Positions 6,622 to 51,309 are shown, counted from the first letter of the stretch. The stretch is 64,000 bases of DNA from Azolla caroliniana (GCA_043228905.1 JBHGNT010000014.1:3844001-3908000), one strand, 5' to 3'. A program made the numbers and translations. Notes: generated by a model not told the origin, from the letters alone.

Positions 6622-6797
6622 GGGAGGGGGGTGGAGCCATTCTAGGCACCACCCCCACCCCACAATGCTTCTCAATGCTTGTCTTGCATCTTCATGATCT
6701 CTCACCATCATACCATTCATCATCTCCACCATTACACCATGTCTATCTTCATCATCAATCATCATCATTATCATTCTCATTAACCCTAACCCTAAAA

Positions 6798-7059
6798 ACC
6801 TACAACACTCTATGGGGTGGAAGTATGGGGCGGTAAGATCCCTAAATCTATGTGGAAAGAGTTTGAAAATGTCCAAAAACATTTTCGTACAAATTTTCTA
6901 CAAATTAAGAAACAAACGCCCTACACCATCCTACTCCTTGAGACGGGATTGCTTCCCATTGAGATAATGGCCATGGAAAGGGTTGTTGAATACATGCTTA
7001 AGGTTCAAAAAAGCCCCTCACATCGACTTCCTAGATTTGCATGGGAAGGAAGCAAAAAG
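6798..7059 (+). pseudogene. 5'-truncated non-LTR (LINE) ORF2 relic, left part
   Basis: PTTLYGVEVWG...LLETGLLPI motif typical of the LINE RT C-terminal region; frame continues at 22114 once the DNA transposon is removed (AWEGSKK|IQKTHKS). Confidence 0.8.
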
Positions 7060-7427
7060 AACGGGTTCGCGTTCACAAGTGGAAGGATCGCGTATAAATG
7101 GAAGGATAAGGAAAATTTTGGTTGATTTGAGGGCTTTTTCAATGATTTTACAAAACACATTGATACCAGTATCATACATGTTCAAACATACTATGAAAAA
7201 GGTTAAAAATTCACTATTTTCGTGATTTAGAAGTAACTAAAAAAAGAGGAATTTCAAAAAGTTACATTCTCAATTTATATCACAAACTTTACAACCAATG
7301 TTATTTTATAAGAAATGATTTTTTAGAAATCATAAGAATTCAAAACACATGCTTTTATATTACTCGATTTGTTACAAGCGGAATGTATTTACACTTAATA
7401 GCCAAAAATACATTCATGATCATTCCT

Positions 7428-10120
7428 TTACGGAGAATCACTACTATAACTAATATACAATGACGATTCCTCCTCGTCATCCTCGGATGTACCAATCAGT
7501 GCATTATCTTCGTCATAAACCAAATGGTTTGACTCTAGATTATATGTAGCAGATCTCGTTTGCCTTTGACTCGAGCTACATTGTAGACCTGGTAATTTTT
7601 CTTTTATTATATCTATTGTGGACTTCCTTAATCGTCCGGCTTTTGTAAGTGTGAAGTCGTACACGATGATATCCACATCAGAGATATCAAGGGTAGAGGT
7701 GTTACGAATGTTTCGCTTCCTCTTCCTACCTCCCCTTCTTGTTGGGCATTATATCATCTCCAATGTATACTTACCTGTAAAAGCATTTGCACTTCTAGTG
7801 TTGTACCAATGAACGTTTATAGACTTGGTAGTGTTTTCTATTTCATGCATTATCACTTCTAGAATTTTACCAACCCAAAATTGGTGGCCATGTGAATTCT
7901 CATCAGCAGGCGTTGCAATCAACATCCCCGCCGTGAGCTCTTGCAAATTGCCTTGCCATCTAGCTTTGGCTGCTTTGGTCATCCTTGGTCCCACATAAAT
8001 GTCTCTTTGTTGTGGATGGACCAAACTGTCATTAATCGCATTTGTTGGTTGCTCCAGAGTTCTATTTACACGATCATGTTGCAGCGACCATGTGAATGGC
8101 GTTTCCAAATTCCAATTATCACCAAATACACAATTGTCTATAATTCCTTTCTGATCACTATAAAATACATCCCACCATGACGTGTCTTGTTGTGCAGCAT
8201 ATTTCTTGACGGCCTCAATATGCTTTCTTTTTTCTTCTAAGGCTTGGAGCCATAACCGTTTTTGTTCCAATACCAAGTCACTCTGCAACCGTCCTTTCTT
8301 CTCAATTGGCATTTGCTTAGCTCCATGGACAATTGTACTCGGCATACAAAGTAATAATTGGCAACCACCTTCAGGTTCCCATGTTGTAGAAGATGAATAT
8401 TGTTTCGCATACAAAAGTGTAGAACCACTTATTTCATTTTTCTTTATCATAAAAATGTGATTGAAGCTTATATTGTTTAACTGGGCAAGCACTTTAACAT
8501 TCCCAACACCCCCATCTGATATATATCTCTTAAAGTCATATACCTCCTTCAAGTGTAACACTTTTGGGCGTGGTGTATATGCATCACAAATGACATCAAA
8601 TAGTTTAGGTAATGTGAAAGCATCATGCCGAGACAACTGTCTTGAGAATGTGCTAAACATCTGATCTATATGATCATGTGTGTGGCCAACCAAAAGAAAA
8701 TTGACTTTCAGTTTCCTGAACAATCCTTGGTTGACCAACATAGTTAGATAGCCAAACACAGTTGAATTTTTGTTCTCTCTAGCAGTATTGTCCAATTGAA
8801 TGTATAGAATAGGGGGGAAAGGTTGGCCCCAAGACATCAAAACTCAGTGAATCACTATAAATGTTAGGTTAGGGTCATTGTGAACATTGGGATATGTAAT
8901 GAAGACGTGAGGTCCAACAGACCTATTATAAGCCAAGCATCCCACCAAGTGCATTTGAACAAGGCACTCATCATTGACGTCTTTGGGGAGCCTCCGCATA
9001 TGCGGCAATCACGTCTTCTTCTGGTCTATGCCATCTATCATTAAGAACATGTGTTGTTCGGGCCTCTTCAAACACTTCTCTCTATGATGCATCACCTTCT
9101 TTCGTTCTAACGATTGTGCCTCATGATGCTCTTGTAGTAACTTCTTACTCATATCCTTTTCCATTGATGTCTTTGCACCTTTAGCCAAACTTTCAAGATT
9201 TGCACAAATGGAGTAATACCCCATGCATACTTTACGTGGAATGATCGATAGACATCATAAACTTCCCGACATGAGTAATTATCAGAAAGGTGCATCCTAC
9301 CTGTAGTGGGCATTACTATACAATTTAACTGAAAGTAACTTTTCATCCAACCAATAGCATGTCTTCCAATTGCACCTTTCATACTTGGAACCTCTTTACA
9401 ATTGAGAATCTGATCCCCACTAAGTAGACATTGTTGTACTCTATGTAGCCGCATGTTACTAACATATAACGCAATTTTGAATGCAACTCTACATATCTGT
9501 TGTGCATGGAAGATATAATACTCGAATGATACTTTGATCCCCATACATTTGTCAAATACTAGTTGCATATGTGACCTGAGGTAAGTGTCTTGCTCATCAC
9601 CAGTCATCGAAAAATAGTATCGCCTTAATTCTCCCAACTTTGATTTTCCAATCATAGACATACAACCACGAGCACAACATATTTTTTTGACATCAAATCC
9701 AATCTGTTTATCTGATGTCACCAAGTTAAATCTAGCCAGACGAATTCTTCGTGGGATTCTTCTAATATGCATAGGGCTTCCAGATTTCTCTTCCTGCATA
9801 GAAGTTGGTGTAACCTTGTTATTATCCAATTCTTTGTTGTGACCATCGCCCATGATATTCGATGTTTCATTGGCACTACCTTCATTCTCCGTATCTTTAT
9901 TAATATCGTATTCTCCAATAGAGAACTCTTTACATGTGTCATTATTCACATTCGTTGTGCTCAGACAATACTCTTCGATAGAATATGGTGAGTCTGTGGA
10001 CAGACAATATTCTTCAATAGAAAATGGTGAGTCTGTCGACAAACAATACTCTTCGGTAGAAAACGAAGAGTCTGATGACAAACAATATTCTTCAATCGAG
10101 AACGGTGAATCTTCACTCAT
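7428..10120 (-). pseudogene. Sola-like DDD transposase, disrupted
   Basis: Motifs MIDGIDQKKT, YIQLDNTARENKN, FLLVGHTHDHIDQMFS; N-terminal CCxxxC and CRVAF; stops near 9009, 8850 and 7749, frameshift or deletion near 9240. Confidence 0.82.
9955..10112 (-). repeat. 39-bp coding tandem repeat x4 (SPFSIEEYCLSTD) at the transposase N-terminus
   Basis: Four visible 13-aa units in ORF 9149-10120. Confidence 0.85.
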
Positions 10121-10422
10121 GGCTTAATGTCTAGACAGAGCTCTTTAAGTTATGTGCTTAGGCTAAGGCAAAAAACTAATAAGCTCCTCTCTAAACATAT
10201 ACTCCTCTCTAAACATAAACTCCTCTCAAAACAGAAGCTCCCTCAATATAATGTCTATATTATTCAATATTATATTAATAGAATAAATAAAAAATATTAT
10301 TTTAAATATAGTAATTGTATTTAACATATTAATAATTACTTAAACTAGTCTATATGAAGTTAAATCAAGTATAATATAATTACAATCATTACCAAGCCAT
10401 ATATATGTTGGATTAAAGTTAA

Positions 10423-10823
10423 AATCATTGGTTAATTAATGGCACCCATATTTAATATAGAACTTCTCAATCATTGGTTCATTATGCCCACCATTTTAAA
10501 TATAAGACTTTTCAATCATTGGTTCATTCATGCCCACATCTTTAATACAAAGCAATTAAGAGTCATAAAAATGTTGATTTCAGTAATCAATCATTGGTTC
10601 ATTCATGAACCTCTATCATTGTTTCCTTCATGACCTTCAAAGTCATTGTAAGTTATTTTGACTATAAAATATTCATCAATATGTTAGTTTGACTTTGTAA
10701 TCATTAATGCAATCATAAGTTACTCTCATTAATGTGACCGTGGTTACTAACTAACCTCACGCTTTCCAACCCTAGTTAAAGTGAATGTGGTTACTTTAAC
10801 CACTATGGTCAATCCCTATAAAT
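10423..10823. promoter_or_regulatory. Putative promoter region between divergent genes: 4x AATCATTGGTT (reverse CCAAT boxes) and TATAAAT at 10817
   Basis: Motif at ~10423, 10469, 10514, 10589; TATA box 150 bp upstream of ATG 10967. Confidence 0.55.
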
Positions 10824-10966
10824 AGGAAGACCTCGTCATATTTCACTCACACGAAACACAAGAGCACACACAACAAACAAAACAAACAAAGCAAACAAAG
10901 CACACAGAGCACGAAGCATGAAGCACGATAGCGAGATCTCCACCTAAAAATCGACAAATATCAACC

Positions 10967-12828
10967 ATGTCTTCAAAGAAAATCGAGCGCCAAGACTCCA
11001 GGTAAGCCTCTGACACTGTAGACATTTTTGTAAATATGTTTTAGCATCAGGAACTCGATACGCCGTATCGAGTTCCTGTATAAAACACAAACAATAGACA
11101 TGAACTCTATACGGCGTATCGAGTTCTTGTGTGATGTTTAGGTTTTATACAGGAACTCGATACGGCGTATCGAGTTCCTCTACTTTGTGTTTTAAACAAG
11201 AACTCGATACGGCGTATCAAGTTCCTGTATTATGTTTGCGTTTTAAACAGGAACTCGATACGCCGTATCGAGTTCTTGTATTATGTTTGCGTTTTAAACA
11301 GGAACTCGTTACACTATATCGAGTTCCTGAATAAAACACAGATATTATATAGGAACTCGATACGCCGTATCGAGTTCCTGTACACAATTTATATTTTCTT
11401 GTATATAGTGTGCATTTTAAACTAGAACTCGATACGCCGTATCGAGTTCCTGTGTGATGTAACTCTTTTATTGAGGAACTCGATACAGCGTATCGAGCTC
11501 CTAGATTATGTTTGTGTTTTATACATGAACTCGATACGGCGTATCAAGTCCCTGTATAAAGTTTGTGTTTTAAACAGGAACTCGTTACGCCGTATCGAGT
11601 TCCTGTGTAAAGTATGTGTTTGATACACGAACTCGATACCCTGCATTGATTTCATGTACAGACACGAACTGTATACAGGAACACGATACGGCGTATCGGG
11701 TTCCTGTATAAAATAAGAACTTGAAAGAGGAATATTGTGTCTTTGGGGCAACAACTTAGTATTGTGTGAAAAGATATCAAACTTTCTGTCAAAATCAGTC
11801 TTTTTTTAGGGTGATTTGCCTTATTTTGTAAAAAATAGGGGCCTTAATTATAGAGGTTTTATGACCTAGTATAGCTTAAAATAGTACAAAATAACCCACA
11901 AATTACCTTTACAATACCAAATTCAAGTCTATGATATGCAAATTCCCTACAATATGGATATGGAATCAATATAAGCTATACCTGCCCTTCAAGACAATAT
12001 ATATCCTTGTATACTTATTAAGATATATATATTTTAAGTTGAATAGCCCTTACTAGAATAGATTTCTGAATATAGGACTACCATGTACACTCAATGCATG
12101 ATTGATATTTATAGTTTACCGCAAATCGCCTGCTAGTTTATTTCTTCATCTATTTATTTGTATTTTAATATACAATCTTAATCTACGTGACCACCTAACT
12201 TATGTTTTCGCATGTCCTTTCTTAAATAGGTCGTTTGAGAACTTGTCGGACCGACCTGTGAAGAAGATAAAGCTCCGGATACAGGGTTCTCCAATTGAAA
12301 CACAGACCCTAATAGCTCCCGAGACCATGAAGAGAGGAAAAAGGCTTCTTTTCAACGAGGAGACAAAATCTCAATCACACATTGAGGTTAGCCAAAAGAA
12401 ACTAGTAGTAGCTACTGGAGGTGAAGACCTTCCTGACCGTGATCTAACGGACAAGGAATGGTGTATGCAATACGTCGACTCCAAGAAAAAAGTTGTATTG
12501 TATACAACAAAGAAGAAGGGTGAGGGGCAGTTGAAAATGAAACCCCATTTATGTATGGCCATATTCTACGATTGGACTACGAAGATGCAGATTTGGCAAC
12601 GATGTCGTAGACATGATCCAAAAAGTGCCAAAGAAGGAATATACGCTAATGATTGCGGATATTCCTTATGGATTTCGAATGGTTGGGTCATCATACGACG
12701 ATGAACCGTTTAGGTTTAAACAGTTGGAGAAGATGGTCAAGGATTTTGCTGAGCTAACGACTGCATCCTTGTGGAGAATAGTTGTCTTTCATAGTATGGA
12801 CCAAGGGTACTCGGTAGCTCAAGCTTAA
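10967..12828 (+). pseudogene. Transposon accessory gene, amino (N6A/N4C) DNA methyltransferase-like; exon 1 10967-11001, exon 2 from 12230, frameshift ~12591, truncated
   Basis: GTAAGC donor, CTAAC branch point and TAG acceptor splice in frame (MSSKKIERQDS-R-SFENL); FGNDVVDMIQKVPKKEYTLMIADIPYG resembles the GD...LP...DL...DPPY start of beta-class amino-MTases. Confidence 0.62.
11048..11706. repeat. Array of 13 palindromic 31-bp units (CAGGAACTCGATAC-GSC-GTATCGAGTTCCTG), mostly 51-bp period
   Basis: Unit starts ~11048, 11099, 11150, 11197, 11248, 11299, 11350, 11422, 11473, 11524, 11575, 11626, 11676; ~20-bp AT-rich linkers. Confidence 0.95.
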
Positions 12829-13673
12829 TGAGTTATAATTTATACTTTGACCCATACTTGCATGTATATAATTGTGGACAATGTAGGATAGTGCACTTAC
12901 AAGTACACCTCATATTTTTGTAAAACTTACCAAATTAATATAAGTCTTTAACTTAAAGTTTCCCATGTCACACATTAGTGACATATTGAGCCGTTGTTGA
13001 ACTTTATTATGCCTACATTAACTTATCAACACATTGTCGTAGTGTAATTCGCACACTACGTGGAAAATGCATTTTTTGTCTCTACAGATGGGACATAAGC
13101 AGGACCCGGTAAGAACCGGATAAAGAAAACCGGCAAGAACTGGATAAAGAAAACCGGTGAGAACCAGATGAAGCAGACCCAGTGAGAATCAGATGAAGAA
13201 GGCCGGTGAGAGTCTCTCATCGGATGAAGAGACATATTTGTAAATAGAAGAAAGTATAAAAATATATATTACATGCATAGGGCAAGACTCAAACCTTGCA
13301 CCTCCATGTTTATAATGTAAAGCCTTACCATTACACTAACATATCATTAGCTCGACTCTCGAAGCGGGAACAAAGATTGTTCGGGGAGGATAAAGTCCTA
13401 ATGTTCGTAAGATCGATCGATCAAAAAGAAAGGATGGACATTGGGATCCAACTCGAAGATGATGGCGGTGCAAATGGACTTACCGAGGATTGGGATGAAG
13501 TCGAAAGAGTATGCCGAAGACATGATAAGAGGAAGATGAGAATATCATCGGCAACAACATGGCCTATAAGGGATGACCGATTAAGGATGAACGATGTGAC
13601 TGATTCGAAGGCCGAAGTACGATTCAACGGTACCACGGGAGAGGGTGTGGAATAAGGCATCCTCTTTTCTTGT

Positions 13674-14001
13674 TGTTGAGCGGCAAGCTCAACCGGAGCC
13701 GGATCGGCTGAATAAGCCGGACCCGGTAAGCGAGACGGATCGGGCGAAACGGATCGGTATGACGGTGAGCAACCGAATCGGCAAGCAGTGGAGGCCGGGT
13801 GCAATCCATAACCGGAAGTCTAATCGGAAGCCTAGTATAGGATAGACTGCTAGGTAGCTATAGTCTCGTAGTAAGTGTCAAATGCTCGTGTGAGCATTGA
13901 AGTACATGGTACTTCTCTCAGTCCCAAGAGGACTTGTATAAATAGTGCTACTTAGCACAGTGTGTATACAGAGTTTTGATATAATTTTGAAATTGCGTTC
14001 T

Positions 14002-14037
<36 letters not shown>

Positions 14038-14076
14038 GTTCTCTGTTTTACGCTTCCGCAAACACTTACGTTTAGA
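13674..14076 (+). repeat. copia 5' LTR
   Basis: Direct repeat of 19207-19605; TATA box and (CT)n tract. Confidence 0.93.
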
Positions 14077-14170
14077 TGGTATCAAAGCGCGAGGGTTGAG
14101 AATCTCTACTGCAGACATTTACTCTTGAGAAGAAAACCCTAACAGGTTGAAAACAGACACAGTAGAAGAC

Positions 14171-17100
14171 ATGGATAGAGGCATGGCTACGTCGCTCCCG
14201 GTGGAGAAGCTCGACAGGAGCAACTACGCATCCTGGTCTTACAAGATGCACCAGTACCTGCTTGGACACGGGTACTGGAGTTATGTCGAAGGAGCGAATG
14301 ATGCAGCGCCAGACTTGGCACACAAGGACTTCCCGGTATGGGAACAGGCGGCAAGCAAGGTGATGTACTGCTTCGCGTCCAGTGTCGGCGATCAGCTGCT
14401 CAGCCACATCCGTGACGCCAAGACACCGAAGGATGCTTGGGGGAACCTGAAAAAGGTTTTCGCCACAAGCACCATTGCCCGGAAGCTGCAACTCAGACAG
14501 GAGTTGAGCAATGTTTGACAGAAGAACATGTTCGTGGCAGACTACACGGGCCGGATAAAGGAAATCTGCGATTCGCTGGCCTCTATCAATATTACCATAG
14601 AGGAAGACGAGATGGTGCAGGTATGTCTCGGAGGCCTGGCGTCCAAGTTCGGAGCGTTCTGGACTGCGGTGTGTACAAGGGAGAATACCCCCTCATTCTT
14701 CGACTTACAGTCGATGCTCCTTGTAGAGGAGAACCACGCCGGTGCATCTACCAGTGCATCCTCGGACAGCCAAATGTTGTACACGGTAACGGATCGGCTC
14801 CGTGGGCGTGCTGGAAGAGGTGGGTCGGCACGCAATGGAGGCGGCCGACAAGAGCAGGAACGAAGGCACTATGAGTGTGCCGACAGCAGTTCCGGGACTT
14901 CCACAAGCAGGGGGAGTCAAGGCGGTGCCGGAGGCCGGCAAGACAAATCCGGTACGGAATGCTGGTACTGTGGCAAAAAAGACCACAGGGAAAGCGAGTG
15001 CTGGAGAAAGCGTGCAGATTCGGACAAATCCGGATCCGGCAAGACCGGTAAGGATGGCCGGCAAAACTCGCACTACGCAAACGGATCAGGAGGATCCGGA
15101 ACCGGAAAGGCCGGTAAGGGGCCAGCCTTGGTGATGAATCACAAGGCAAACTCAATGAAGAAAACCACTTCCAAAATGGAGGAAGTGTGGTATGTTGATT
15201 CCGGCGCGTCGAACCACATGACGAGCCACAAAGAGTGGTTCTCCTTTCTAGAGAAACCGGATCAACCAGGAGTAGTCGAAACCGGAGACGACACTCCTCA
15301 CCCAATCGTGCACGTCGGAGAAGTCCCTCTAAGCCACGTCGAACAGAAAGGGAAGCTGATGAACGTATTACACATTCCGACAATCACGAAGAACCTGGTG
15401 TCCGTCGGTCAGATTGTCGACCAGGGTATGCAGGTGCGGTTTACGCACCTCGGGTGCTTCATTGAGGATGAGGGCGAAGTCATTGTGCAAGGGCGCAGAG
15501 ACGGGAGGATGATTATCCTCAACACCAATGACTTTGGCACCGCTCTGTTCGCGAAACGATAGAAGGTCGAGTCGTACATCGACCTGTGGCACAAGCGGAT
15601 AGGCCACGTCAACTACCGGAGGCTTCAAGATCTGCAAACGAAACAAGTCGTTTTCGGTTTGCCGAAGTTCAGCGGCCGGAGAGCCGAAATTTGTGAAGCC
15701 TGCCAACTTGGGAAGCAATACCGGCTTCCATTCCCCACCGAACGGAACCGGAGCCGTAACAAGCTCGATCTCATCCATTCGGATGTGTGGGGACCGGCAC
15801 AAAGTGTAAGCCTTCGCGGGAGTCGGTACTTCGTCTCCTTCATCGACGACTATACTCGACATACTTGGATCTACCTCATTGAGCGGAAGAGCGAAGTCTT
15901 CGACTGTTTCCGGAGCCTCCAGAAGATGGTGGAACGGGAATCGGAGAGGAAGATTAAATGCCTTCGGTCGGATGGCTGAAAGGAATATTTTTCCGGCCAA
16001 TTCACTAGTTATCTGCAGTAGAAGGGAATTCAGCGAGAGTTCAACTGCAGATACACACCGGAGCAAAACGGTGTGGCTGAAAGGAAGAACCGGACACTCG
16101 TCGAAGTGGCAAGGACAATGCTGGAGGAGAAGAGCATGCCCCGGTTCTACTGGGCGGAGGCGGTCCGGACGGCCGTCTACATACAAAACCGCATTGGTGA
16201 CAAGGTGTCAGCTCATGAGCTGTATTTCGGGTGCAAGCCGAACTTAAGACACCTTCGGATATTCGGCAGCATAGCGTATGTGCATGTGCCCGATCAGAAG
16301 CGGAGAAAGCTGGATGCAAAATCGGAAAAATGCATTCTAGTCGGCTATGCTCAAGAGCAAAAGGGGTATAAGTGCTATAACCCCCGAACGAAGGAAGTCC
16401 GAGTTAGCCAGGATGTCGAGTTCAATGAATCGGCATCCTGGTACTCCGTACCGACTCCGACTTCCAATCCCGACCCAATGCCGGAAGATCAGGCCAGTGA
16501 GCCTGAATCAACCCTGGTAGAGGATGATGAAGTCGGGACTCAAGATGAGAGTCTGGAATCGTTACGGTTGAGTGGACCGAACAAGCGACTGAGTCGGTTG
16601 GATCAGTCGGATGAAGAGACGGCAAGTGGTGGAGACTCTGCCATGCTCTCCCAGCGCAAGGAACCGAGGAAACGGTTCACGCGCAAAGAGAAGGGGAAGA
16701 GGAAGATGCCGGAATTCGAAACCGGCAACGATGAGTCAGATCGGTGCGTATCCGACTCCGGAAAAGAGAAAGGCGGATCTTCGGCAACGAAGACCGAACT
16801 GGCCAAGAAGGGCCTCAAATCAGGTTACGGTGCGTTGCACCGATCAACCCGCCAGAAGGATCCCGTCATGCGGTACGGGTACAATGAATACATGGCGCAT
16901 CATTATGCGTACATGACTAAGGTGATAGAAGTGCGTGAGCCGGAGAGCTATGCAGAAGCGGCAAAGGACGCAAATTGGCGTGCCGCTATGGATGAAGAAA
17001 TGCGGGCGCTCGATGCCAACGAAACTTGGGACCTAGTTGACCCTCCCCGTCACTGCAAACCGATCGGATGCAAGTGGGTGTACAAGGTCAAGTACAACGC

Positions 17101-18577
17101 CGACGGTTCTGTTAACCGGTACAAAGCCCAGTTAGTGGCGAAGGGATATGCACAGACCCACGGAATCGACTACGACGAGACCTTTGCTCCTCTGGCGAAG
17201 ATGACGACGGTTCGTGTGGTACTGGCGGTTGCTGCGGCAAGGGGGTGGCATCTTCACTAGATGGATGTGAAGAACGCCTTCCTTCAAGGAGAGCTTGAAG
17301 AAGAAGTCTTTATGACTCAGCCCCCCGGATTTCAATCGGAGATGAACAAGTCGGCGGTATGCCGACTGCAGAAGTCGCTTTACGGCTTCAAGCAAGCCCC
17401 CCGAGCCTGGAACGCGAAGATCACGCACCGATTGCGTAAGCTGGGGTTTGCTGTCTCTAAGTCAGACTGTTCGTTGTTCATCCGGCAAGGCTCTGACGGT
17501 CCGGTATGTATACTCTTGTATGTGGATGATTTAGTCATCACCGGACCGGGTCTTCCCGAAATCAACCGCGTCAAGTCCCAGTTGTCGGACGCATTCGAAA
17601 TGAAGGACCTGGGGGACCTTCATTATTTTCTTGGGATCGAAGTGATCCGGACCCCCGACGGCATATTGCTTTCACAACGACATTACGTGTTGAATATGTT
17701 GTATAAGTTCGGCATGACGGATTGCCGACCTGTCTCCACACCCCTGGACCGGAACCAGAAGCTCCGTCCCAACTCCGGACCGGCCTGCAATGAGAAACGG
17801 TTCCGACAGGCTGTCGGAAGCCTGATCTACTTAACCATCACCCGACCCAACATCAGCTATCCGGTCGGCATGGTAAGCCAGTTCATGCAGAAGCCAACCG
17901 TGGAGCACCTTCAGTGCGCGCAACAAATATTACGGTATGTCAGCGGCACTAAGGACCGGGGACTGCTATACCGGCGAGGTATACCTGAAGAGCTTGTCGG
18001 TTACATAGATGCTGACTGGGCCGGCGATGCGTCTGATCGCCGCTCCACTTCCGGATACATGTTCTCCATAGGTAGTGCGGCCGTTGCGTGGAGCAGCAAG
18101 AAGCAGCCCACAGTGGCTTTGTCAAGCACTGAGGCTGACTACCGGGCCGCTACCGTTGCCACTTGTGAAGCCATCTGGCTTCGGCGACTGCTGCGAGACT
18201 TGCGGATCGAGGTACTGACCCCGATCCCGATTTACTACGATAACATGAGCAGCCTGCAGCTCGCCAGGAACCCTGTGTTCCATGCTCGCACAAAGCACAT
18301 CGAGGTGCACTACCACTTCGTGCGTGAGCGGGTCCTGAGCGGTGAAGTTGACCTACGGTATGTTCATACAGATCGGCAAGTTGCCGACATCTTCACCAAG
18401 CTGCTCGGATCGGACAAGTTGCAGCACTTTACTGACATGCTTGGTATTCAGCATCTTGACGTGTCGCACTTGAGGGGGAGAAGCATGGGCAAAGTCTCTA
18501 TCGAAACGGGCAAATGCCAAAAAACTGTTGAACCCATCGGTAAGAGGAGAGCCGGAAGAAGAGGAGACGAGAAATGA
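14171..18577 (+). pseudogene. copia gag-pol, single frame with five premature stops
   Basis: CCHC, WYVDSGASNHM, LIHSDVWGP, LYVDDL, DADWAG, RTKHIEVHYHF; stops at 14516, 15560, 15977, 16019, 17258. Confidence 0.94.
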
Positions 18578-18972
18578 AGGAAGCCGAGTCAACAAAGGAA
18601 GTCGACACATCCGAACAGGTCGGACCAAGCGGCTGTGAAGAAGAATTGTGCACTCAGGAAGAGAAGTGCATGCTGTGCGGAGGTCATCACGACGGTACTG
18701 ACCATGATACAGAGTCGAATGAAGAATTCGATTTCGGTTCACCGGCTGAAGAAGCCGAGGGAAGCTTGGAGAAGGCCAAGACTCGGAAGTGGTCCGATGT
18801 GGTGAGAGGCCTGAAGCCGGAAGTCGAATCGGAGTGTACCGATTCGGACAAGAGCTGGAACGAGTCGGAGACAGCTGACTCGGATCAACAGATGGATCCG
18901 GATGAGTCAGATCGATTGAAGGCCAAGGGGACACGGACACAACGGAAGTCGCCGCCATCGTGGGAGAACTGA
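18574..18972 (+). CDS. Extra acidic 132-aa ORF between pol and the 3' LTR, unknown function
   Basis: ATG overlaps the pol stop (ATGA); no recognisable domain. Confidence 0.35.
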   Translation: MKEAESTKEVDTSEQVGPSGCEEELCTQEEKCMLCGGHHDGTDHDTESNEEFDFGSPAEEAEGSLEKAKTRKWSDVVRGLKPEVESECTDSDKSWNESETADSDQQMDPDESDRLKAKGTRTQRKSPPSWEN

Positions 18973-19206
18973 CGGATCGGTAAGCGCCGGAGTCACAACA
19001 ACGTGAGTGTTGAGATGGGCCTATTGAGCAGACATGCCGACCGAGAGGGTCGAGGCGCGCAAAACCAAAGGTGTCGCGGCAAACGGGACCGGACCGAACG
19101 AGGAGCGCGAGCAAAGCGGAGTGACGCCAGGAGAAGTCGGTTGGAAGAACCAACTGCCATAGAGATCGACACTACGACCCCACCTCAGGTTGAGCTTGAG
19201 GGGGAG

Positions 19207-19535
19207 TGTTGAGCGGCAAGCTCAACCGGAGCCGGATCGGCTGAATAAGCCGGAGCCGGTAAGCGAGACGGATCGGGCGAAACGGATCGGTATGACGGTG
19301 AGCAACCGAACCGGCAAGCAGTGGAGGCCGGGTGCAATCCGTAACCGGAAGTCCAATCGGAAGCCTAGTATAGGATAGACTACTAGGTAGCTATAGTCTC
19401 GTAGTAAGTGTCAAATGCTCGTGTGAGCATTGAAGTACATGGTACTTCTGTCAGTCCCAAGAGGACTTGTATAAATAGTGCTACTTAGCACAGTGTGTAT
19501 ACAAAGTTTTGATATAATTTTGAAATTGCGTTCTG

Positions 19536-19566
<31 letters not shown>

Positions 19567-19605
19567 GTTCTCTGTTTTACGCTTCCGCAAACACTTACGT
19601 TCATA
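19207..19605 (+). repeat. copia 3' LTR
   Basis: Direct repeat of 13674-14076, preceded by a PPT. Confidence 0.93.
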
Positions 19606-22109
19606 CTTGCAAAAGAACCACGGCCAAGGATAAGGTCGATTACTTGAGAGTGGTGAACACCACTTCAAGAACGGAAGAAGGTTTCGGAATACAAGTATTC
19701 GAAACATCGGGTGAAAAAGGGGTAAGCATAATCGATGCTTGCATGATCGAGGGAGATAAAGAGTGTGAGGCGGACTTGATTGAGGAGGTCGCCATGAAAG
19801 ATGACATCGAATCGAAGGTGGCTATAGATGAATCAATGGCGGATGGTCGTATGAAGACTTTCCCACCACTAGTTCTAGATATTTCGGCGGTTGCGTTCGA
19901 AAAGCAACGTGAGACCAAAGAGACGGAAGATGGCGGAGAGAAAACGAAGGCCGACGCCGATGCATACGACGGAGAGATAGCCGAGAAGGTGGCTATGGGT
20001 GAAACGATGGAGGACGGTAATACCGAGGATTCTTGCCCACTAATTCTAGAGACTTCGACGGTTGTGTACGAGTACCAACGTGAGACCAGAGAGACGAGAG
20101 GTGGTGGCAAGAAAGGTAAAGTCGGAAGTCGTTCGGATGGAAGATGATCCGGACGAAATTCCGATCTAAACAAAAACCAACCCGGAAGGGGACCGAATCG
20201 GTGAAAACAGATCAACTGAGTCCGGTTCGAGTGAATACGAATCCGATCAGAACCCGATCCAATCGAAAGCCGATCTGACGAGAACGAATTGGAAAGAAGC
20301 TAATACGACTCAACCAGAGGTCGAAACAATCGAGGCCAGTGAAGATAAGGAAGAGGTCAAGCAAAGGCACTACCACGGATGACAAGGACCAAGCAGGCAA
20401 AGTGGATTTGAAGATTGTTACCAAGGATGAGATCTTAACAAAGACGGTGAGCTCTAACATGAAGATTATCAACTCTAATGCGAGATTATACGACAAAGGT
20501 GAACAAAGTGGGAAGCATGGCACATGCACGAGACAAGAAGAGTTATGCTCAAGAGAATCACAAGGAGCCATGACAATCGGCCATGGCAATGCAAACAGTG
20601 AACGAAGAGTATGGTGGATCGGATGGCGACAATGGTTTGGGTGGAAAGAATGGATATGCTCAAAATGGAGAGACAAAGTTGACATAGCGAGCGAAACGAA
20701 GGGATTGCGAGTAAAGGAGAAATACGAGAGCCGACAACCGGTAATCGAGCAGAGCAAGCAACTGAAAACTGGAAACCGGATGGAGCCGGCAAACGAACAG
20801 AACCGGAAACCGAGCGGAGCCGGCAACCAAGCACGACCGACGACGAAACCAACCAGGCGGATATCGAACGGGGAAGACTAACAATCACCGACAGCTTCGA
20901 CACATACCGGAGGATGTGCGGGCTCGGAGGGGGCGAGTGTTGTAGTGTAACTCGCACACTACGTGAAAAATGCATTTTTTGTCTCTACGGATGGGACATA
21001 AGGAGGACCCGGTAAGAACCGGATAAAGAAAACCGGTGAGAACCGGATGAAGCAGATCTGGTGAGAACCGGATAAAGAAAACCAGTGAGAACCGGATGAA
21101 GCAGATTTGGTGAGATCCGGATAAAGAAAACCGGTGAGAACCAGATGAAGCAGACCTGGTGAGAACCGGATGAAGCAGACCTGGTGAGAACCGGATGAAG
21201 AAGGTTGGTGAGAGTCTCTCACTGGATGAAGAGACATATTTGTAAATAGAAGAAAGTATAAAAATATATATTACATGCATAGGGAAAGACTCAAACCTTG
21301 CACCTCCATGTTTAGAATGTAAAGCCTTACCATTACACTAACATATCATTAGTGTTAAAAAGGTAAACGTCCCACATAGAAAGGTAAGTTCACACGAGGA
21401 TAAACTTTAGTTAGAAGAAAACACATGATAAAAGCTACGCATGCACATGTAGCGTGCATGAACACCATAATCGATAAAAACGCATCAAATTAGAAAAAGT
21501 AAGATCACTTTAGAAAAAGCATAGAGTCTATCTATAGAAAAGCATGGATTGTTAAAGTCTCTCTCATCGTTATATAAGGATGGGGAGCACAATGTAATAG
21601 GTGTGTGGATTATTTGGAAATTGGATATATTTCCTAAAACACCAATTAACAAACTATATTCGTGGGATTCACGAAATAATCTATACTTGGGAGATTCACA
21701 AGTTCTTTTTAATCTCTTTCTTTCAATCTAAATACATATTCTTATCTAAATATTGATTAATCTAATACAATACACTCGTGGGATTCATGAGATTTCTATC
21801 TCTCTTTCTAATAATCTATCCATAACTATAAACTTGTCTCAAATTCTTCCTCTTCCTAGTCCAAAACCCCAGCGGTTCTCACGCAACGATCTGGCGTCGA
21901 AAGGCACGACAACGTCCAAACTTGCATGATTTCTAATGATCTCCACTCGTAGACCTATCATGTATTTTTATATTTGCAAATTCTAATCAAGTTGTGGAAC
22001 ATGTGATACTAGTGCATCCAATTTTTGTAGAGAGGGTATATTTGGATAGTTTCAAGAAGATTCTACAAGTGGAATGCATAATCCTTCCACTTGTGAACGC
22101 GAACGTGTT

Positions 22110-22700
22110 AAAGATCCAAAAGACGCATAAAAGCAAAATTTTGTGTTTCGGTTGGATGCTAGATTTAGAAAAATGGTTTGGTAGATGGGATGCAAGACAC
22201 TTGCTTCATGATGTCTCACTAGATTCCTCTGTAAATGAGACCTTTTAGCAACGCCAATGTATCATGACATGGGACAAATGTGGTGGCTCACGCTTCACAC
22301 ATTATACTACAAATGTTGCACCTAACTACAAAACCATATTCTTCGCGGAATGGGGAAGCCATACACATCGATGCATGTTAGAGTGCATCCCGATATCTGC
22401 AATTCGAACCATTGCTTCCATGTGACTTAGCTCGCACGCATTGTGATGTGAGATGGGGCTTTGGGGCACAAGTGATGAGAGTGGCCGACTATACACACTT
22501 TACCCTAAACAAGTTTGAGAGTCTGAGTATCACACTTTGATACAATGCTCTGCCTTTGATCATATTCGACCATGCTTTCCACATCTCTTCGATCGAGCCC
22601 AATCCATGCACGAATTTCTCTCACAACCACGATGTGCACTCTCAATTGCAACATTCATTGGTAAAGTTCTTGAACATTGAGAGTCGCTACTCACTTTGAC
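22110..22700 (+). pseudogene. LINE ORF2 relic, right part with degenerate C-terminal zinc-finger region
   Basis: LSSHAL*CEMGLWG...ESEYHTLIQC...IR motif; contiguous with 6798-7059. Confidence 0.75.
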
Positions 22701-47380: not shown

Positions 47381-50300
47381 ATGGGGGTTCCTAACGAGAG
47401 TGAGTTGTCAAGTAACTCATGCATATCTGAAAGGACTAAGAGACGAGTGGTTCTTCACATAGTCCGTTATTTGGTAGAAATAACAAAGAGATTTAGTGAA
47501 GAGGATCGTAGGGATATTATCTGTAGAGTGTTACACCATCAAAGTTTGAATGAAGACATGGAGAGAATAAAATTTAGGGACCAATGTGTTTCAGAAGAGA
47601 TTGTAGAGTCTATGAAGTCATCCCTAGACTTAGTGAAAGGTGTAGAGAGCTTAGACAAACTTGCTGCAAAGAGGGCAGCCCTACACATGGTTGTGAACGG
47701 TGCGAGAGGAAAAAAATATAGTGATACTAAAGTTGCCTTAGCCCTGGGTATTCAAAGAAGGAACTTGAGGAAACATCGCCAAAATATACACTCAAACAAA
47801 TTCAAGTGGATGGGGTTGGGACGTAGACGACGATGTGATGCCTTATCTCAAGAGATTATTGAGAAAGTGGATTCATTTTGGGCCAAAAATACGCGTGTCT
47901 CACCAAATAAGAAGGACGTGTGTAGACAACGAATAAGTCAGGGTAAGTACCAGATTCACCCTAGACACTTCTTGGAGATGACAGAGGTATTCCATTTTTT
48001 TATATCATTTCACATTCCATAACTTTGTGTTTTGACCAACTGTATATTAATGTTTGCTATATATATTGGTTGATGTAGGCTGAATTGTACATGAACTTTA
48101 AAGATCAACATCCAAGCTTGACTGTTGGATTCCGCAAGTTCCAAGGTTTGAAACCATTTTATGTTAGAAAATTAAATGAGAGGAATACATGTTGTTGTGT
48201 GTACCATGTGAAGATGGACATGTTAAGGCTAGCCGTGAATGCAATGCGTACTGATTGTAAGGGTATACACGGGGAATTATGTGTCTGCACTTGTGAGATA
48301 TGTAGACCAAATGGGGAGGATAATAGGTGTAATGCACGAAACATGACTTATGCATCTGTTTCTGAGCTATGGAGGTCTTGTGTTTGTGAAAAAGAACCAT
48401 CATGTGAGTGGCATCGTCGTACATGTCTATTAAGAACATGTAAGGTTTGTCCGCTACCATTATTTTGTATGCAGGAGCTTGATTTGGGAAACAGTCATAT
48501 CGTGAAATGGAAATATTTAGAGTATGTGACTGAAAATATTGGCAAGGGAGTTGTAACTAAGCGTATCAAGGAAGTATATAAGGAGACATGTGCTGCTACC
48601 CTTGTCTCAGAATTTAAGAAACAACTTGGGGAGTTCATTCCACATAACTTCCGGAGTTATTGGCAAAATTCACAATTCAAGGAATGTATTAATAACTTAC
48701 CAACGGGTGTCATCGTATCTGTTATTGACTTTGCAGAAAACTATACATTTAAAGTTCAGAATGAGGTTCAATCAATGCATTGGTACAATGATCAATGTAC
48801 AATACTTGTGCATATTTGCTATTGGAGGCAAGACGGTGAGTTACATAAGAAATCAATATTTTACATTTCAGATGATAAAAAGCATGATACACTATTTGTT
48901 CAACATTGTTTTAAGCTTCACCATGCAGATTTATTTTCTCTAGGGGTAACCTTTAACCGTCATTGGGTTTGGTCTGATGGTGCTGCCTCGCAGTTTAAGG
49001 CGGCACGATCGTTCTACTTTATCGCCAGGTAATTTTTAATCCATATGTTTAGTACTTACCATGCAATGTGTAAGGAAGTAATTCTTGTGTTAGTGCATGC
49101 ATACTAATTATGTTTGTAATTATTAACAAACAGTACTATTCACATGGATGCATACTAATTATGTTTGTAACTATTCGAATCTTGCACTTGTGAATGGATG
49201 CATGCATACTAATTTTGTTTGTACTATGTTTTAATCCATGTGAAGGGTTCTCCATAGACACATTGTACTATGTTGTGTGTTGTATCTGTACTATGTTGTG
49301 TTTACAGGAGGATGTAAAGTACTCATCTTGTACTCATAGTATTGTCCGTCCTTAAGAGCATTGTACTAAGTATGTTTTAATCCATGTGAAGGGTTCTCCA
49401 TAGACACATTGTACTATGTTGTGTGTTGTATCTGTACTATGTTGTGTTTACAGGAGGATGTAAAGTACTCATCTTGTACTCATAGTATTGTCCGTCCTTA
49501 AGAGCATTGTACTAAGTATGTTTTAATCCATGTGAAGGGTTCTCCATAGACACATTGTACTATGTTGTGTGTTGTATCTGTACTATGTTGTGTTTACAGG
49601 AGGATGTAAAGTACTCATCTTGTACTCATAGTATTGTCCGTCCTTAAGAGCATTGTACTAAGTATGTTTTAATCCATGTGAAGGGTTCTCCATAGACACA
49701 TTGTACTATACAAGAGGATGTAAAGTACTCATCTTCTACTCATAGTATAAACCATACTAAGTTAGTACTAAGTTATATCCATACTAAGTATCGATTAATC
49801 AATGTGAAGGGTTCTCCATAGACACATTGTAGTATGTTGTGTGTTGGTTCTGTACTATGTTGTGTTTACAAAAGGATGTAAAGTACTCATCTTGTACTTA
49901 TAGTATTGTCCGTCCTTAAGAGAATTGTACTAATTATGTTTTAATCCATGTGAAGGGTTCTCCATAGACACATTGTACTATACAAGAGGATGTTAAGTAC
50001 TCATCTTGTACTCATAGTATAAACCAGACTAAGTTAGTACTAAGAATTGTACTAAGTATCGACTAATCAATGTGAAGGGTTCTCCATAGACACATTGTAC
50101 TATGTTGTGTGTTGCTTCTGTACTATGTTGTGTTTACAAAAGGATGTAAAGTACTCATCTTGTACTTATAGTATTGTCCGTCCTTAAGAGAATTGTACTA
50201 ATTATGTTTTAATCCATGTGAAGGGTTCTCCATAGACACATTGTACTATACAAGGGGATGTAAAGTACTCATCTTGTACTCATAGTATAAACCAGACTAA

Positions 50301-51309
50301 GTTAGTACTAAGTTATATCCATACTAAGTTAGTATTAAATGGATGCCAGTATTAATGGAAGTGTAGTACTCTCTATTGACAACATAGTACTAATTTTGTT
50401 GGAAACCTGAGTTACAAAAGCAGGTATTTCTCCTTATTCAACATTCGTATGCAATGGAATTACTTCGGGTCTGGACATGGAAAAGGAGAGCATGATGGCG
50501 CGGGGGCTGTGATCAAACGTGCCCTTACAAGTGAGCAGTTGGATAATAATGGTGCTAAGCTACAAAATGCACATGATGTTGTGCAGTGGCTAACATGGAA
50601 GATGTCAAATGATGGTAAGAACAGATTGTTTGTTGAAGTTCGCGCTGATGAGGTCGATAGAACTAAATCATATGGTTGTAAAACCGTGAAAGGCACACGC
50701 AGCACCCATTGTGTGTTAGGGTTTAGCCGCAAGGACACAACACAATTGTTACTACGTAGTTTATCATGCTTTTGTTCCATGTGTATAGATGAAGCTTGGG
50801 ATAAATGCATCAACCTATCAATCCTGGAGCCCTGGAAGTTGCAGAAGCTTGAGCCTGAACGACAAGATGATATTGAAGATGATGTGCATTCAAACGATAT
50901 TGTATACTACAACCAAAATCAAGACTTGGCAGTTTTATTGGAAGTTGGAGATCATTTTGCAGTGCTCAAATCTCCTCAGAATGAAGATTTAGAAGACTAC
51001 TACATTGTGGTGTGCAAGCAAGGAAAGACATTATTGAAAGAAGTGGTGAGGGATGGCTGGGGCAACAATTTCAACGTTGGTGAGTCTGTCGTGTATGGAA
51101 ACTATTATGCAAAGTTGCCGCAGTGCAAGAACACATATGCATTACTAAAAGAAGCACCCATCGCAATAATCTACGCTGATGCCATTCTTGCGATCAAATT
51201 CAATATGACTCAAGCAAAGCACAAGGTTAAGGGATACAACACTGTCTACAAGGTCCCCCAAGAGGTTCATGAGCACATATTAGGGGAGGTCTCTCTATTT
51301 AATGCTTGA
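47381..51309 (+). CDS. Sola2 transposase, 3 exons (47381-47986, 48079-49028, 50424-51309), 813 aa, apparently intact
   Basis: GT-AG introns join in frame (MTE|AELY; FIA-R-YFS); motifs IDFAENY, QSMHW, ISDDKKHD, WSDGAASQFK, GHGKGEHDGAG; Cys-rich region. Confidence 0.9.
49225..50330. repeat. 146-bp GTAC-rich tandem repeat (~8 units; first three look identical) in transposase intron 2
   Basis: Unit starts 49225, 49371, 49517, 49663, then alternating short and long variants. Confidence 0.93.

What the first reader, a model, noticed from the sequence alone, without database searches (positions are those of the whole stretch)
10967..12828. Sola-like DNA transposon carrying a divergently transcribed amino-DNA-methyltransferase-like gene
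Seen: inside TIRs 7060/22109, head-to-head with the transposase, lies a spliced gene with TATA, ATG and an in-frame GT-AG intron. Its 3' part reads FGNDVVDMIQKVPKKEYTLMIADIPYGF...WRIVVFHS (DIPY at 12658-12669). Known: beta-class N6A/N4C MTases begin GD-x-LP-x-DL-x-DPPY; eukaryotic examples are rare (bdelloid N4CMT, Marchantia 4mC enzymes, DIRS-borne adenine MTase domains). Inference: this plant DNA-transposon family may carry its own 4mC/6mA writer, perhaps for self-marking or anti-silencing. This copy is frameshifted (~12591) and stops before any SAM-binding motif, so it is not functional itself.
Basis: partly seen in the sequence, partly recalled or inferred. Interest (0 to 1): 0.85.

Follow-up and report, generated by a model that had tools for sequence, protein, structure and literature searches.

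The report
Plant transposon carrying its own methylase
This is a broken copy of a many-copy cut-and-paste transposon of a likely fern, whose intact relatives keep a conserved bacterial-style ParB-plus-DNA-methylase gene that likely binds a row of palindromes in its own intron and would mark the element's own DNA; the design is published for algae, and my searches did not find it described for land plants.

Summary
The element spans 7060-22109, has 29-bp TIRs and a 4-bp target duplication, and carries a DUF7869 transposase head-to-head with a spliced second gene. That gene is not merely frameshifted at ~12591. It has a 1-nt loss at 12530 and two ~1.7-kb deletions (~12598 and 12826). Related contigs hold the intact gene: six exons, 975 aa, with a ParB-like domain and a beta-class amino-methyltransferase (DIPY, NPYQKP, DLFSGTG). 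The SAM motif is present in 48 of 57 contigs that reach it, dN/dS is about 0.04, and a fern homologue folds like CcrM. Best model: the protein docks on these palindromes and methylates its own element, probably 6mA. Binding, activity and expression are untested. The same design is published for Ectocarpus Sola1-1_Ec32, with related cargo in red-algal Plavaka elements, so this is a new land-plant member of a known kind. This scan noted the family before, twice in this genome and once in another.

The parts
7056..7059 (+). Left 4-bp target-site duplication (AAAG), inside a LINE-like reading frame
   Evidence: empty site seen table 7
7060..7088 (+). Left TIR, 29 bp (family terminus AACAC...; two changes near the tip in this copy)
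7161..7172 (+). Subterminal site TGATAC-YR-GTRY, ~100 bp in from the left end, kept in diverged subfamilies
7428..10120 (-). Single-exon DUF7869 DDD-type transposase; 3 in-frame stops and an ~80-nt deletion near 9244 in this copy
10121..10966 (.). Divergent promoter region between the two genes; TATAAAT at 10817
   Evidence: sequence; TATA box at the same place in L020
10967..11001 (+). Exon 1 (35 nt) of the ParB-methyltransferase gene; same length and phase in intact L020
11002..12229 (+). Intron 1 (GT-AG)
11051..11703 (.). Array of 13 palindromes AACTCGATAC-N3-GTATCGAGTT at ~51-bp spacing (candidate parS-like docking sites; also folds into long RNA hairpins)
12230..12597 (+). 5' remnant of exon 2 (low-confidence N-terminus and start of a weakly PH-like domain); 1-nt loss at 12530
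12592..12600 (.). Junction of a ~1.77-kb deletion (ParB-like domain, exon 3 and start of exon 4 lost)
   Evidence: L008 848 to 2628; loose ends
12601..12826 (+). Remnant of exon 4: catalytic half of a beta-class amino-methyltransferase, DIPY at 12658-12669
12827..12896 (-). Probably an inverted scrap of 3' non-coding DNA at the junction of a ~1.7-kb deletion (exons 5-6 with NPYQKP and the SAM motif lost)
   Evidence: table 5 (opposite-strand joint 12827/12897); weak match (E 0.018)
12897..13034 (+). 3' non-coding part of the element
   Evidence: L008 4567-4705
13035..21911 (+). Nested LTR-type insertion (TGTCGT...ACGACA, flanked by ACAT/ACGT) that itself holds a Copia-like element at 13674-19603; not part of the family
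21912..22109 (+). Right end, with subterminal TGATAC site at 22004 and right TIR 22081-22109
22110..22113 (+). Right 4-bp target-site duplication (AAAG)

Best explanation
This is a dead, doubly deleted copy of a Sola1-like DNA transposon family whose intact members encode a conserved ParB-like/beta-class amino-methyltransferase fusion that likely binds the palindrome array in its own first intron and would methylate the element's own DNA near the shared promoter, probably at adenine N6, likely to keep the element transcribable in a host that silences transposons with 5mC. Shown: the anatomy, the head-to-head layout, the intact gene in relatives, both folds, strong purifying selection, and a conserved, symmetric palindrome core. 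Inferred: dimer binding to the palindromes (~0.7), catalytic activity on DNA (~0.7), 6mA rather than 4mC (~0.6), and a pro-transposon purpose (~0.5).
For: Intact gene: six GT-AG exons give a 975-aa open frame in L020, and 27 of 31 hand-picked contigs have no stop in the aligned exon codons. Linkage: 9 of 10 contigs with at least 2.2 kb before the gene have the transposase head-to-head. L033 is a whole 7.7-kb element with both TIRs, a perfect TGTT duplication and no stop in either gene's aligned codons. Transposase and cargo identities correlate across 10 elements (Spearman 0.81, Mantel p 0.0002). Selection: median dN/dS is 0.040 for the MTase (20 usable of 465 pairs) and 0.040 for the ParB part (14 pairs), against 0.051 for the transposase core (2 pairs). 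Enzyme features: catalytic motif before SAM motif; DLFSGT in 48 of 57, NPYQKP in 52 of 59. A family profile hits M1.HpyAVI (2.7e-10), MboIIA, CcrM and RsrI, and Foldseek ranks N6-adenine MTases first. DNA-binding features: the exon-2 model matches ParB/Noc (E 4e-5) and PadC (Z 9.9, rmsd 3.0, 99 aligned), with pNOB8 ParB and KorB covering the nucleotide-binding and DNA-binding parts. Sites: the palindrome is present in 23 of 28 contigs with at least 400 nt before exon 2, with 115 sites in 27 kb there against 12 in 148 kb elsewhere. Variable columns stay complementary (0.90 vs 0.33 and 0.90 vs 0.53 expected). Precedent: the same two-domain gene lies on the opposite strand in Ectocarpus Sola1-1_Ec32.
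Against: No activity, binding or methylome data. Motif IV is DIPY/DAPY/DVPY, not DPPY; its 80-of-80 presence in my loci is forced by the scan pattern. The ParB motif reads GGSHSxEAR, without the arginine of the recalled GxxR CTPase box. The MTase model is of an Adiantum homologue only ~33% identical to the window fragment. The KorB match has rmsd 10.4 and the isolated DNA-binding-domain match is only Z 4.0. The intron also folds into very stable RNA hairpins (z -28), so symmetry could be selected in RNA. Palindrome counts and dN/dS pairs are not independent, high-coverage contigs may be collapsed majorities of many copies, and loci were selected through the methylase. Only 1 of 4 contigs with both TIRs has a matching TSD. 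In this dead copy 3 of 13 substitutions in the array are CpG transitions, so the array was not spared there. D versus S at motif IV does not settle 6mA versus 4mC (PMC8885841 notes the domain repeatedly switched).
Confidence: 0.55

Rival explanations
1. The protein is mainly a DNA-binding helper. It binds the array and the subterminal GATAC sites to bring the ends together or to shield the promoter (like En/Spm TnpA or VANC, recalled), and the methylase fold serves for base-flipping or binding rather than for writing a lasting mark.
For: A TGATAC-YR-GTRY site lies ~100 bp inside both ends in the window and is kept in diverged subfamilies; it shares the GATAC half-site with the array. Motif IV is non-canonical.
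Against: The SAM-binding motif and NPYQKP are near-invariant, and the MTase is as constrained as the transposase core. The subterminal sites have a 2-bp, not 3-bp, spacer and could be transposase sites.
Confidence: 0.15
2. The enzyme writes 4mC rather than 6mA, for example at the CG dinucleotides of the palindrome, occupying cytosines that the host would otherwise 5-methylate.
For: PF01555 covers both specificities. Bdelloid N4CMT and PvuII are among the fold hits (E 7.8e-12 and 6.9e-11). The array is CpG-rich (o/e 1.8 vs 0.6 in the transposase).
Against: Known eukaryotic 4mC writers have SPPY (TSPPY in Marchantia). The 11 best fold hits are all enzymes labelled or known as N6-adenine MTases, and most of the best phage hits are annotated adenine-specific.
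Confidence: 0.15
3. The mark is self-limiting rather than anti-silencing. Methylation of the array or subterminal sites represses the promoter or blocks end binding, so that transposition is released only on hemimethylated DNA after replication (as Dam does for IS10, recalled).
For: GATRC half-sites occur both at the promoter-proximal array and near both ends. The array lies in the methylase gene's own first intron, a natural place for feedback.
Against: No direct evidence. The family is very abundant in the source organism's runs, which fits either reading.
Confidence: 0.1
4. The target is RNA: the intron array forms long hairpins, and the enzyme (same class as METTL3) modifies the element's transcript, or the hairpins serve as a small-RNA source unrelated to the protein.
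For: The intron folds at -391 kcal/mol, z -28 against 20 shuffles. METTL3-METTL14 appears among the fold hits at E ~1e-8.
Against: Any tandem palindrome array folds this way. The core sequence, not only the pairing, is kept across subfamilies with saturated synonymous sites. The partner domain is ParB-like and the DNA MTases score six orders of magnitude better.
Confidence: 0.05

Closest known systems
Sola1-1_Ec32 of Ectocarpus (PMC12477816; passages and two supplement rows read)
   Same: Sola-1 DNA transposon with a second gene on the opposite strand encoding a ParB-like domain plus a 4mC/6mA methyltransferase domain (1104 aa there, 975 aa here); 4-bp TSD; AAC...GTT termini; the authors propose the same self-binding, self-modifying role.
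   Different: Brown alga versus land plant; 21.5 kb with 282-bp TIRs versus about 7.7-8.6 kb with ~30-bp TIRs; AACCG versus AACAC termini. The supplement calls the extra gene Ectocarpus-specific. No palindrome array or selection analysis appears in the passages I saw. The proteins were not compared directly.
Plavaka elements of the red alga Bostrychia, PAG2 and PAG3 (bioRxiv 10.1101/2025.02.11.637652; passages read; supplements closed)
   Same: Transposon cargo with a PF01555 methylase (PAG2), a ParB-like domain (PAG3, best hit 7BNR, also my top hit) and tandem inverted repeats beside the ParB gene, proposed as its binding sites.
   Different: EnSpm-type transposase; methylase fused to SET and ParB fused to a 2OG oxygenase, in two genes. 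Here ParB and methylase are one protein and the array is inside its first intron.
Bacterial beta-class N6-adenine MTases (CcrM, M.BceJIV, MboIIA, M1.HpyAVI, RsrI)
   Same: Fold, domain order and SAM motif.
   Different: 14-20% identity; DIPY instead of DPPY; fused to ParB; spliced and transposon-borne.
Bdelloid N4CMT (PMC8885841, passages) and Marchantia MpDN4MT1a/b (bioRxiv 10.1101/2021.02.12.428880, passages)
   Same: Eukaryotic PF01555 beta-class amino-MTases of bacterial origin.
   Different: Host genes; TSPPY motif in Marchantia; chromodomain in N4CMT, which marks transposons for silencing; no ParB domain in the passages seen. Orthology with the Marchantia enzymes was not tested.
TET/JBP-carrying fungal DNA transposons (PMC12730594, passages) and ParB-HTH-fused chlorophyte Dam (PMC4738411, passages)
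   Same: Transposon-borne DNA-modifying enzymes proposed to counter silencing; a ParB-plus-MTase fusion known in algae.
   Different: Different enzyme (dioxygenase), or a different MTase group (M.EcoKI/TaqI-like) in that review.

Membership tests
Sola1-type element like Sola1-1_Ec32 | 4-bp target-site duplication | tested here: met
   AAAG in the window, TGTT in L033; no match in L037, L045 or L065, which may join flanks of different copies
Sola1-type element like Sola1-1_Ec32 | TIRs with AAC...GTT termini | tested here: met
   AACAC or a one-letter variant at the right ends found in 23 of 80 contigs and at 6 left ends; Ectocarpus has AACCG-CGGTT
Sola1-type element like Sola1-1_Ec32 | DDD transposase homologous to named Sola1 transposases | tested here: inconclusive
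   DUF7869 at E 1.4e-41 with three invariant Asp-bearing motifs; no named Sola1 sequence was available to align, so the link DUF7869=Sola rests on recall and on the shared anatomy
Sola1-type element like Sola1-1_Ec32 | ParB-like plus amino-MTase gene on the strand opposite the transposase | tested here: met
Sola2 | Sola2 catalytic motifs (DFxENY; SDG...QYKN; ATSHGK...D) | tested here: not met
   Compared by eye with part 1 of 2 of the Sola2 alignment in PMC3627910: this family has IDGMDQK, QLDNTARENKN, VGHTHDHID
Beta-class N6A/N4C DNA methyltransferase (PF01555) | Catalytic motif IV precedes SAM-binding motif I | tested here: met
   DIPY at aa 692, NPYQKP 827, DLFSGTG 852 in L020
Beta-class N6A/N4C DNA methyltransferase (PF01555) | Motif IV (D/N/S)PP(Y/F) | tested here: inconclusive
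   D-[I/V/A]-P-Y across plant homologues; the first Pro is replaced. ErmC-type NIPY enzymes are active (recalled)
Beta-class N6A/N4C DNA methyltransferase (PF01555) | SAM-binding FxGxG motif | tested here: met
   DLFSGT in 48 of 57 contigs reaching it; 23 of 80 gave no alignment there; deleted in the window copy
Beta-class N6A/N4C DNA methyltransferase (PF01555) | Fold | tested here: met
   Model of homologue P0145, pLDDT 83.6; CcrM E 1.7e-14
Beta-class N6A/N4C DNA methyltransferase (PF01555) | Methyl transfer to DNA; 6mA or 4mC product | not testable with these tools
   needs biochemistry or a long-read methylome
ParB/KorB-type DNA-binding protein | ParB/Srx nucleotide-binding fold followed by a helical DNA-binding domain | tested here: met
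   ParB 7bnr E 4.2e-5; PadC Z 9.9, pNOB8 ParB Z 8.2 over 208 residues, KorB Z 8.6 at rmsd 10.4
ParB/KorB-type DNA-binding protein | CTP-binding GxxRxxA arginine motif (recalled) | tested here: inconclusive
   GGSHSxEAR in 27 of the 28 loci covering it, one reading GGSHSAELR and one GGSHSAEAC; conserved but not canonical
ParB/KorB-type DNA-binding protein | Binds a cognate palindrome | not testable with these tools
   A candidate array exists; binding not assayed
N4CMT / MpDN4MT1 4mC writers | SPPY motif IV | tested here: not met
   DIPY here; TSPPY in Marchantia

The most novel reading that the evidence does not exclude
Streptophyte plants (homologues named in Chara, Riccia, Diphasiastrum, Adiantum and Ginkgo) harbour an old lineage of Sola1 transposons that bring their own parS-ParB-methylase circuit. 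The protein loads on an intronic palindrome array, spreads or bridges to matching GATAC sites near both ends, and writes 6mA in cis, giving the element a private Dam-like switch that controls its promoter and times excision. It would be an unrecognised, sequence-targeted source of non-5mC DNA methylation in fern genomes.
Probability: 0.25. Interest if true: 0.8.

Novelty: new member of a known kind. Interest (0 to 1): 0.52.

Why it matters
A 2016 review states that land plants show few N6A-MTases (PMC4738411), and the known plant 4mC writer is a host gene in Marchantia. A high-copy transposon family that keeps an amino-methylase under dN/dS ~0.04, with a predicted 17-bp docking site, gives a concrete enzyme, a target sequence and a genomic location at which to look for 6mA or 4mC in ferns. 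It makes the self-modification idea proposed for algal transposons testable in a land plant with a model species (a 62%-identical transposase is annotated in Ceratopteris richardii). The concept itself is already in print for algae, which limits the surprise.

Tried and rejected
No whole genome is held, so copies in this genome could not be counted. The window fragment alone gave nothing in Pfam or the PDB, nor did a profile of 61 close exon-4 sequences. Viral contigs: 5 pattern matches, none confirmed. Phage genomes: 210 records, all under 60% and the 15 shown about 25% identical, so no near donor was identified. Expression: no RNA holder listed. The RNA?-labelled run X19 gave only short pieces without a splice joint, and X20 gave none; this is no evidence either way. 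Summed contig depth in DNA run X1 was of the same order over the ParB/MTase exons (25-89k) and the transposase (55-141k), but the tool states depth is no copy number, so I do not use it as a count. Locus-tag adjacency in named genomes: none of 6 Riccia and 6 Adiantum methylase tags seen is next to a DUF7869 tag seen; sampling is too sparse to conclude, so transposon linkage outside the fern-like contigs is not shown. Palindrome class follows the protein tree, which shared descent explains; I do not claim co-evolution. The N-terminal domain had no usable atlas hit and only weak PH-like matches (Z<=5.1). Rejected: termini CAC..GTG (CMC type), because only AAC..GTT gives a TSD and fits the empty site. 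Rejected: host-gene capture by this one copy, because the layout recurs in subfamilies with 54-72% transposase identity. L043 and L059 have transposase DNA beyond their own right TIR (neighbouring elements); L043 was left in the Mantel test. L006 is 5'-truncated with no transposase. Iyer 2011 (PMID 21507349), the source cited for green-algal cases, is not held and could mention plants.

Full report
Observation. The element runs from 7060 to 22109. Its 29-bp ends are the only TIR matches in the window and are flanked by AAAG on both sides. Removing the element restores a continuous LINE-like frame, and a public contig shows that empty site. A DUF7869 transposase lies on the minus strand (E 1.4e-41), with three stops and an ~80-nt deletion. 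From 13035 to 21911 the element is interrupted by nested LTR elements. The host is likely a fern: the closest named transposase is from Ceratopteris richardii (62%). This is an inference.

What the gene is. The window fragment by itself matches nothing in Pfam or the PDB. A search of 1.84 billion representatives found 96 proteins at E<=0.001. Of 29 proteins scanned (25 longer hits from that search and 4 close relatives), 12 hit PF01555, 9 of them at or above the curated cut-off. Those that carry names come from Ginkgo, Chara, Adiantum nelumboides, Riccia sorocarpa and Diphasiastrum. A metagenome scan gave 129 pattern matches, 86 confirmed and 80 kept. In L020 six GT-AG exons give a 975-aa open frame. 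It begins with a low-confidence stretch and a weakly PH-like domain, continues with a ParB-like part, and ends in a beta-class amino-methyltransferase with DIPY, NPYQKP and DLFSGTG. DLFSGT is present in 48 of 57 contigs that reach it and NPYQKP in 52 of 59. DIPY in 80 of 80 is forced by the scan pattern. A family profile hits M1.HpyAVI, MboIIA, CcrM and RsrI. A model of an Adiantum homologue (pLDDT 83.6) matches CcrM at E 1.7e-14. A model of L020 exon 2 matches ParB, Noc, PadC and KorB.

What happened to this copy. Against L008 and L011 the window gene has a 1-nt loss at 12530, a ~1.77-kb deletion at ~12592-12600, and a ~1.7-kb deletion at 12826 followed by what is probably a short inverted scrap. 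The apparent FGND start and the stop codon are products of these junctions.

Is it family cargo? Twelve of 80 contigs contain transposase DNA. Ten have it head-to-head, and two have it beyond their own right TIR. Of the 10 contigs with at least 2.2 kb before the gene, 9 have the head-to-head transposase. A right TIR follows the gene in 23 of 80. L033 is a complete 7.7-kb element with a perfect TGTT duplication and no stop in either gene's aligned codons; L037, L045 and L065 have both TIRs but no matching duplication. Transposase identities among subfamilies fall to 54-61%, and the two genes' distances correlate (rho 0.81). Median dN/dS is 0.040 for both the MTase and ParB parts (20 and 14 usable pairs of 465 among 31 hand-picked contigs; most other pairs are saturated or too close), close to the transposase core (0.051, 2 pairs). 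Three caveats apply: the sample was chosen through the methylase, the pairs are not independent, and high-coverage contigs may be majorities of many copies.

The palindrome array. Intron 1 holds 13 copies of AACTCGATAC-N3-GTATCGAGTT at about 51-bp spacing. The core CGATRC-N3-GYATCG occurs before exon 2 in 23 of 28 contigs long enough to show it, with 115 sites in 27 kb there against 12 in 148 kb elsewhere (10 of those in one contig). Positions that vary among subfamilies stay complementary (0.90 vs 0.33 and 0.90 vs 0.53 expected); these sites are related by descent, so this is not a significance test. A related site, TGATAC-YR-GTRY, lies ~100 bp inside each end in the window and in 10 of the 11 other contigs with a mapped end among the 12 checked, a shifted match in L045 and none in L079 making up the rest. 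The intron also folds into long RNA hairpins (z -28). I had seen these repeats, but analysed them as binding sites only after reading the scan's earlier notes.

Mechanism. The most likely reading is that a dimer docks on the palindromes through its ParB-like part. This would tether the methylase next to the divergent promoter, where it marks the element's own DNA. The Asp of motif IV and the best fold and phage hits favour 6mA. The presumed benefit is continued transcription in a 5mC-silencing host. None of binding, catalysis, product or benefit was tested. Rivals are a binding or end-bridging helper, a 4mC writer, a self-limiting replication switch, and an RNA target.

Comparison with what is known. 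PMC12477816 describes Ectocarpus Sola1-1_Ec32 with a 1104-aa ParB-plus-methyltransferase gene on the strand opposite the transposase and proposes self-modification (passages). Its supplement gives AACCG-CGGTT termini and a 4-bp TSD. The Bostrychia preprint describes Plavaka cargo with a PF01555 methylase, a ParB-like protein and adjacent inverted-repeat arrays (passages; supplements closed). So the design is known. The present family meets the anatomical features of that Sola1 element; direct protein comparison was not possible, and Sola2 motifs do not fit by eye. It is not of the SPPY type of the Marchantia 4mC writers. Ten literature searches (listings, with passages of seven papers read) turned up no description in land plants.

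Verdict. It is a new land-plant member of a kind recently described in algae, with added evidence of strong selection and a candidate target site. The scan had noted the same family in two other places of this genome and a similar element in another genome. Interest 0.52.

Noticed in passing
L020:5245-6111 (ParB-like part; deleted in the window): In the ESM atlas the ParB-like part is nearest to fungal DUF3723 clusters (scores 0.96 and 0.95). DUF3723 is mentioned in Starship transposon papers, none of the 15 listed of which contains the word ParB (listing only). DUF3723 may be a ParB-like accessory protein of Starships.
   Followed up: partly
window 13035-21911: Nested LTR-type insertion with TGTCGT...ACGACA ends, a truncated 5' repeat (13035-13350) and a longer 3' one (from ~20939). 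Inside it lies a young Copia-like element (13674-19603; LTRs 98% alike over the 300 nt compared) with several stops.
   Followed up: partly
window 6796-7059 and 22114 onward: The transposon sits in a LINE-like reading frame that continues across the insertion site.
   Followed up: yes
P0088 (Chara braunii CBR_g41648): Annotated 1825-aa protein holding two tandem ParB-like-plus-methylase units; possibly two adjacent copies merged by gene prediction.
   Followed up: no
L020:4660-5020 (exon 2, aa ~75-195 of the protein): Confidently modelled N-terminal domain with a weak PH-like/SANTA-like fold match (Z 5.1) and no atlas hit; evolves faster (dN/dS ~0.25 over aa 13-250); a candidate partner- or chromatin-binding module.
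   Followed up: partly
window 9950-10115 (minus strand): The transposase N-terminus carries short tandem peptide repeats (FSxEEYCLSxDSP), also seen in looser form in L020.
   Followed up: no
window 49211-50338, 52656-53097, 54094-55097: Other tandem arrays (146-296-nt, 51-nt and 52-nt units) lie in an AT-rich stretch later in the window and may belong to another DNA element.
   Followed up: no
L043:4040-6332: A left end and partial transposase of one subfamily (99.7% identical to L079's) sits right behind the right TIR of another subfamily's element.
   Followed up: partly
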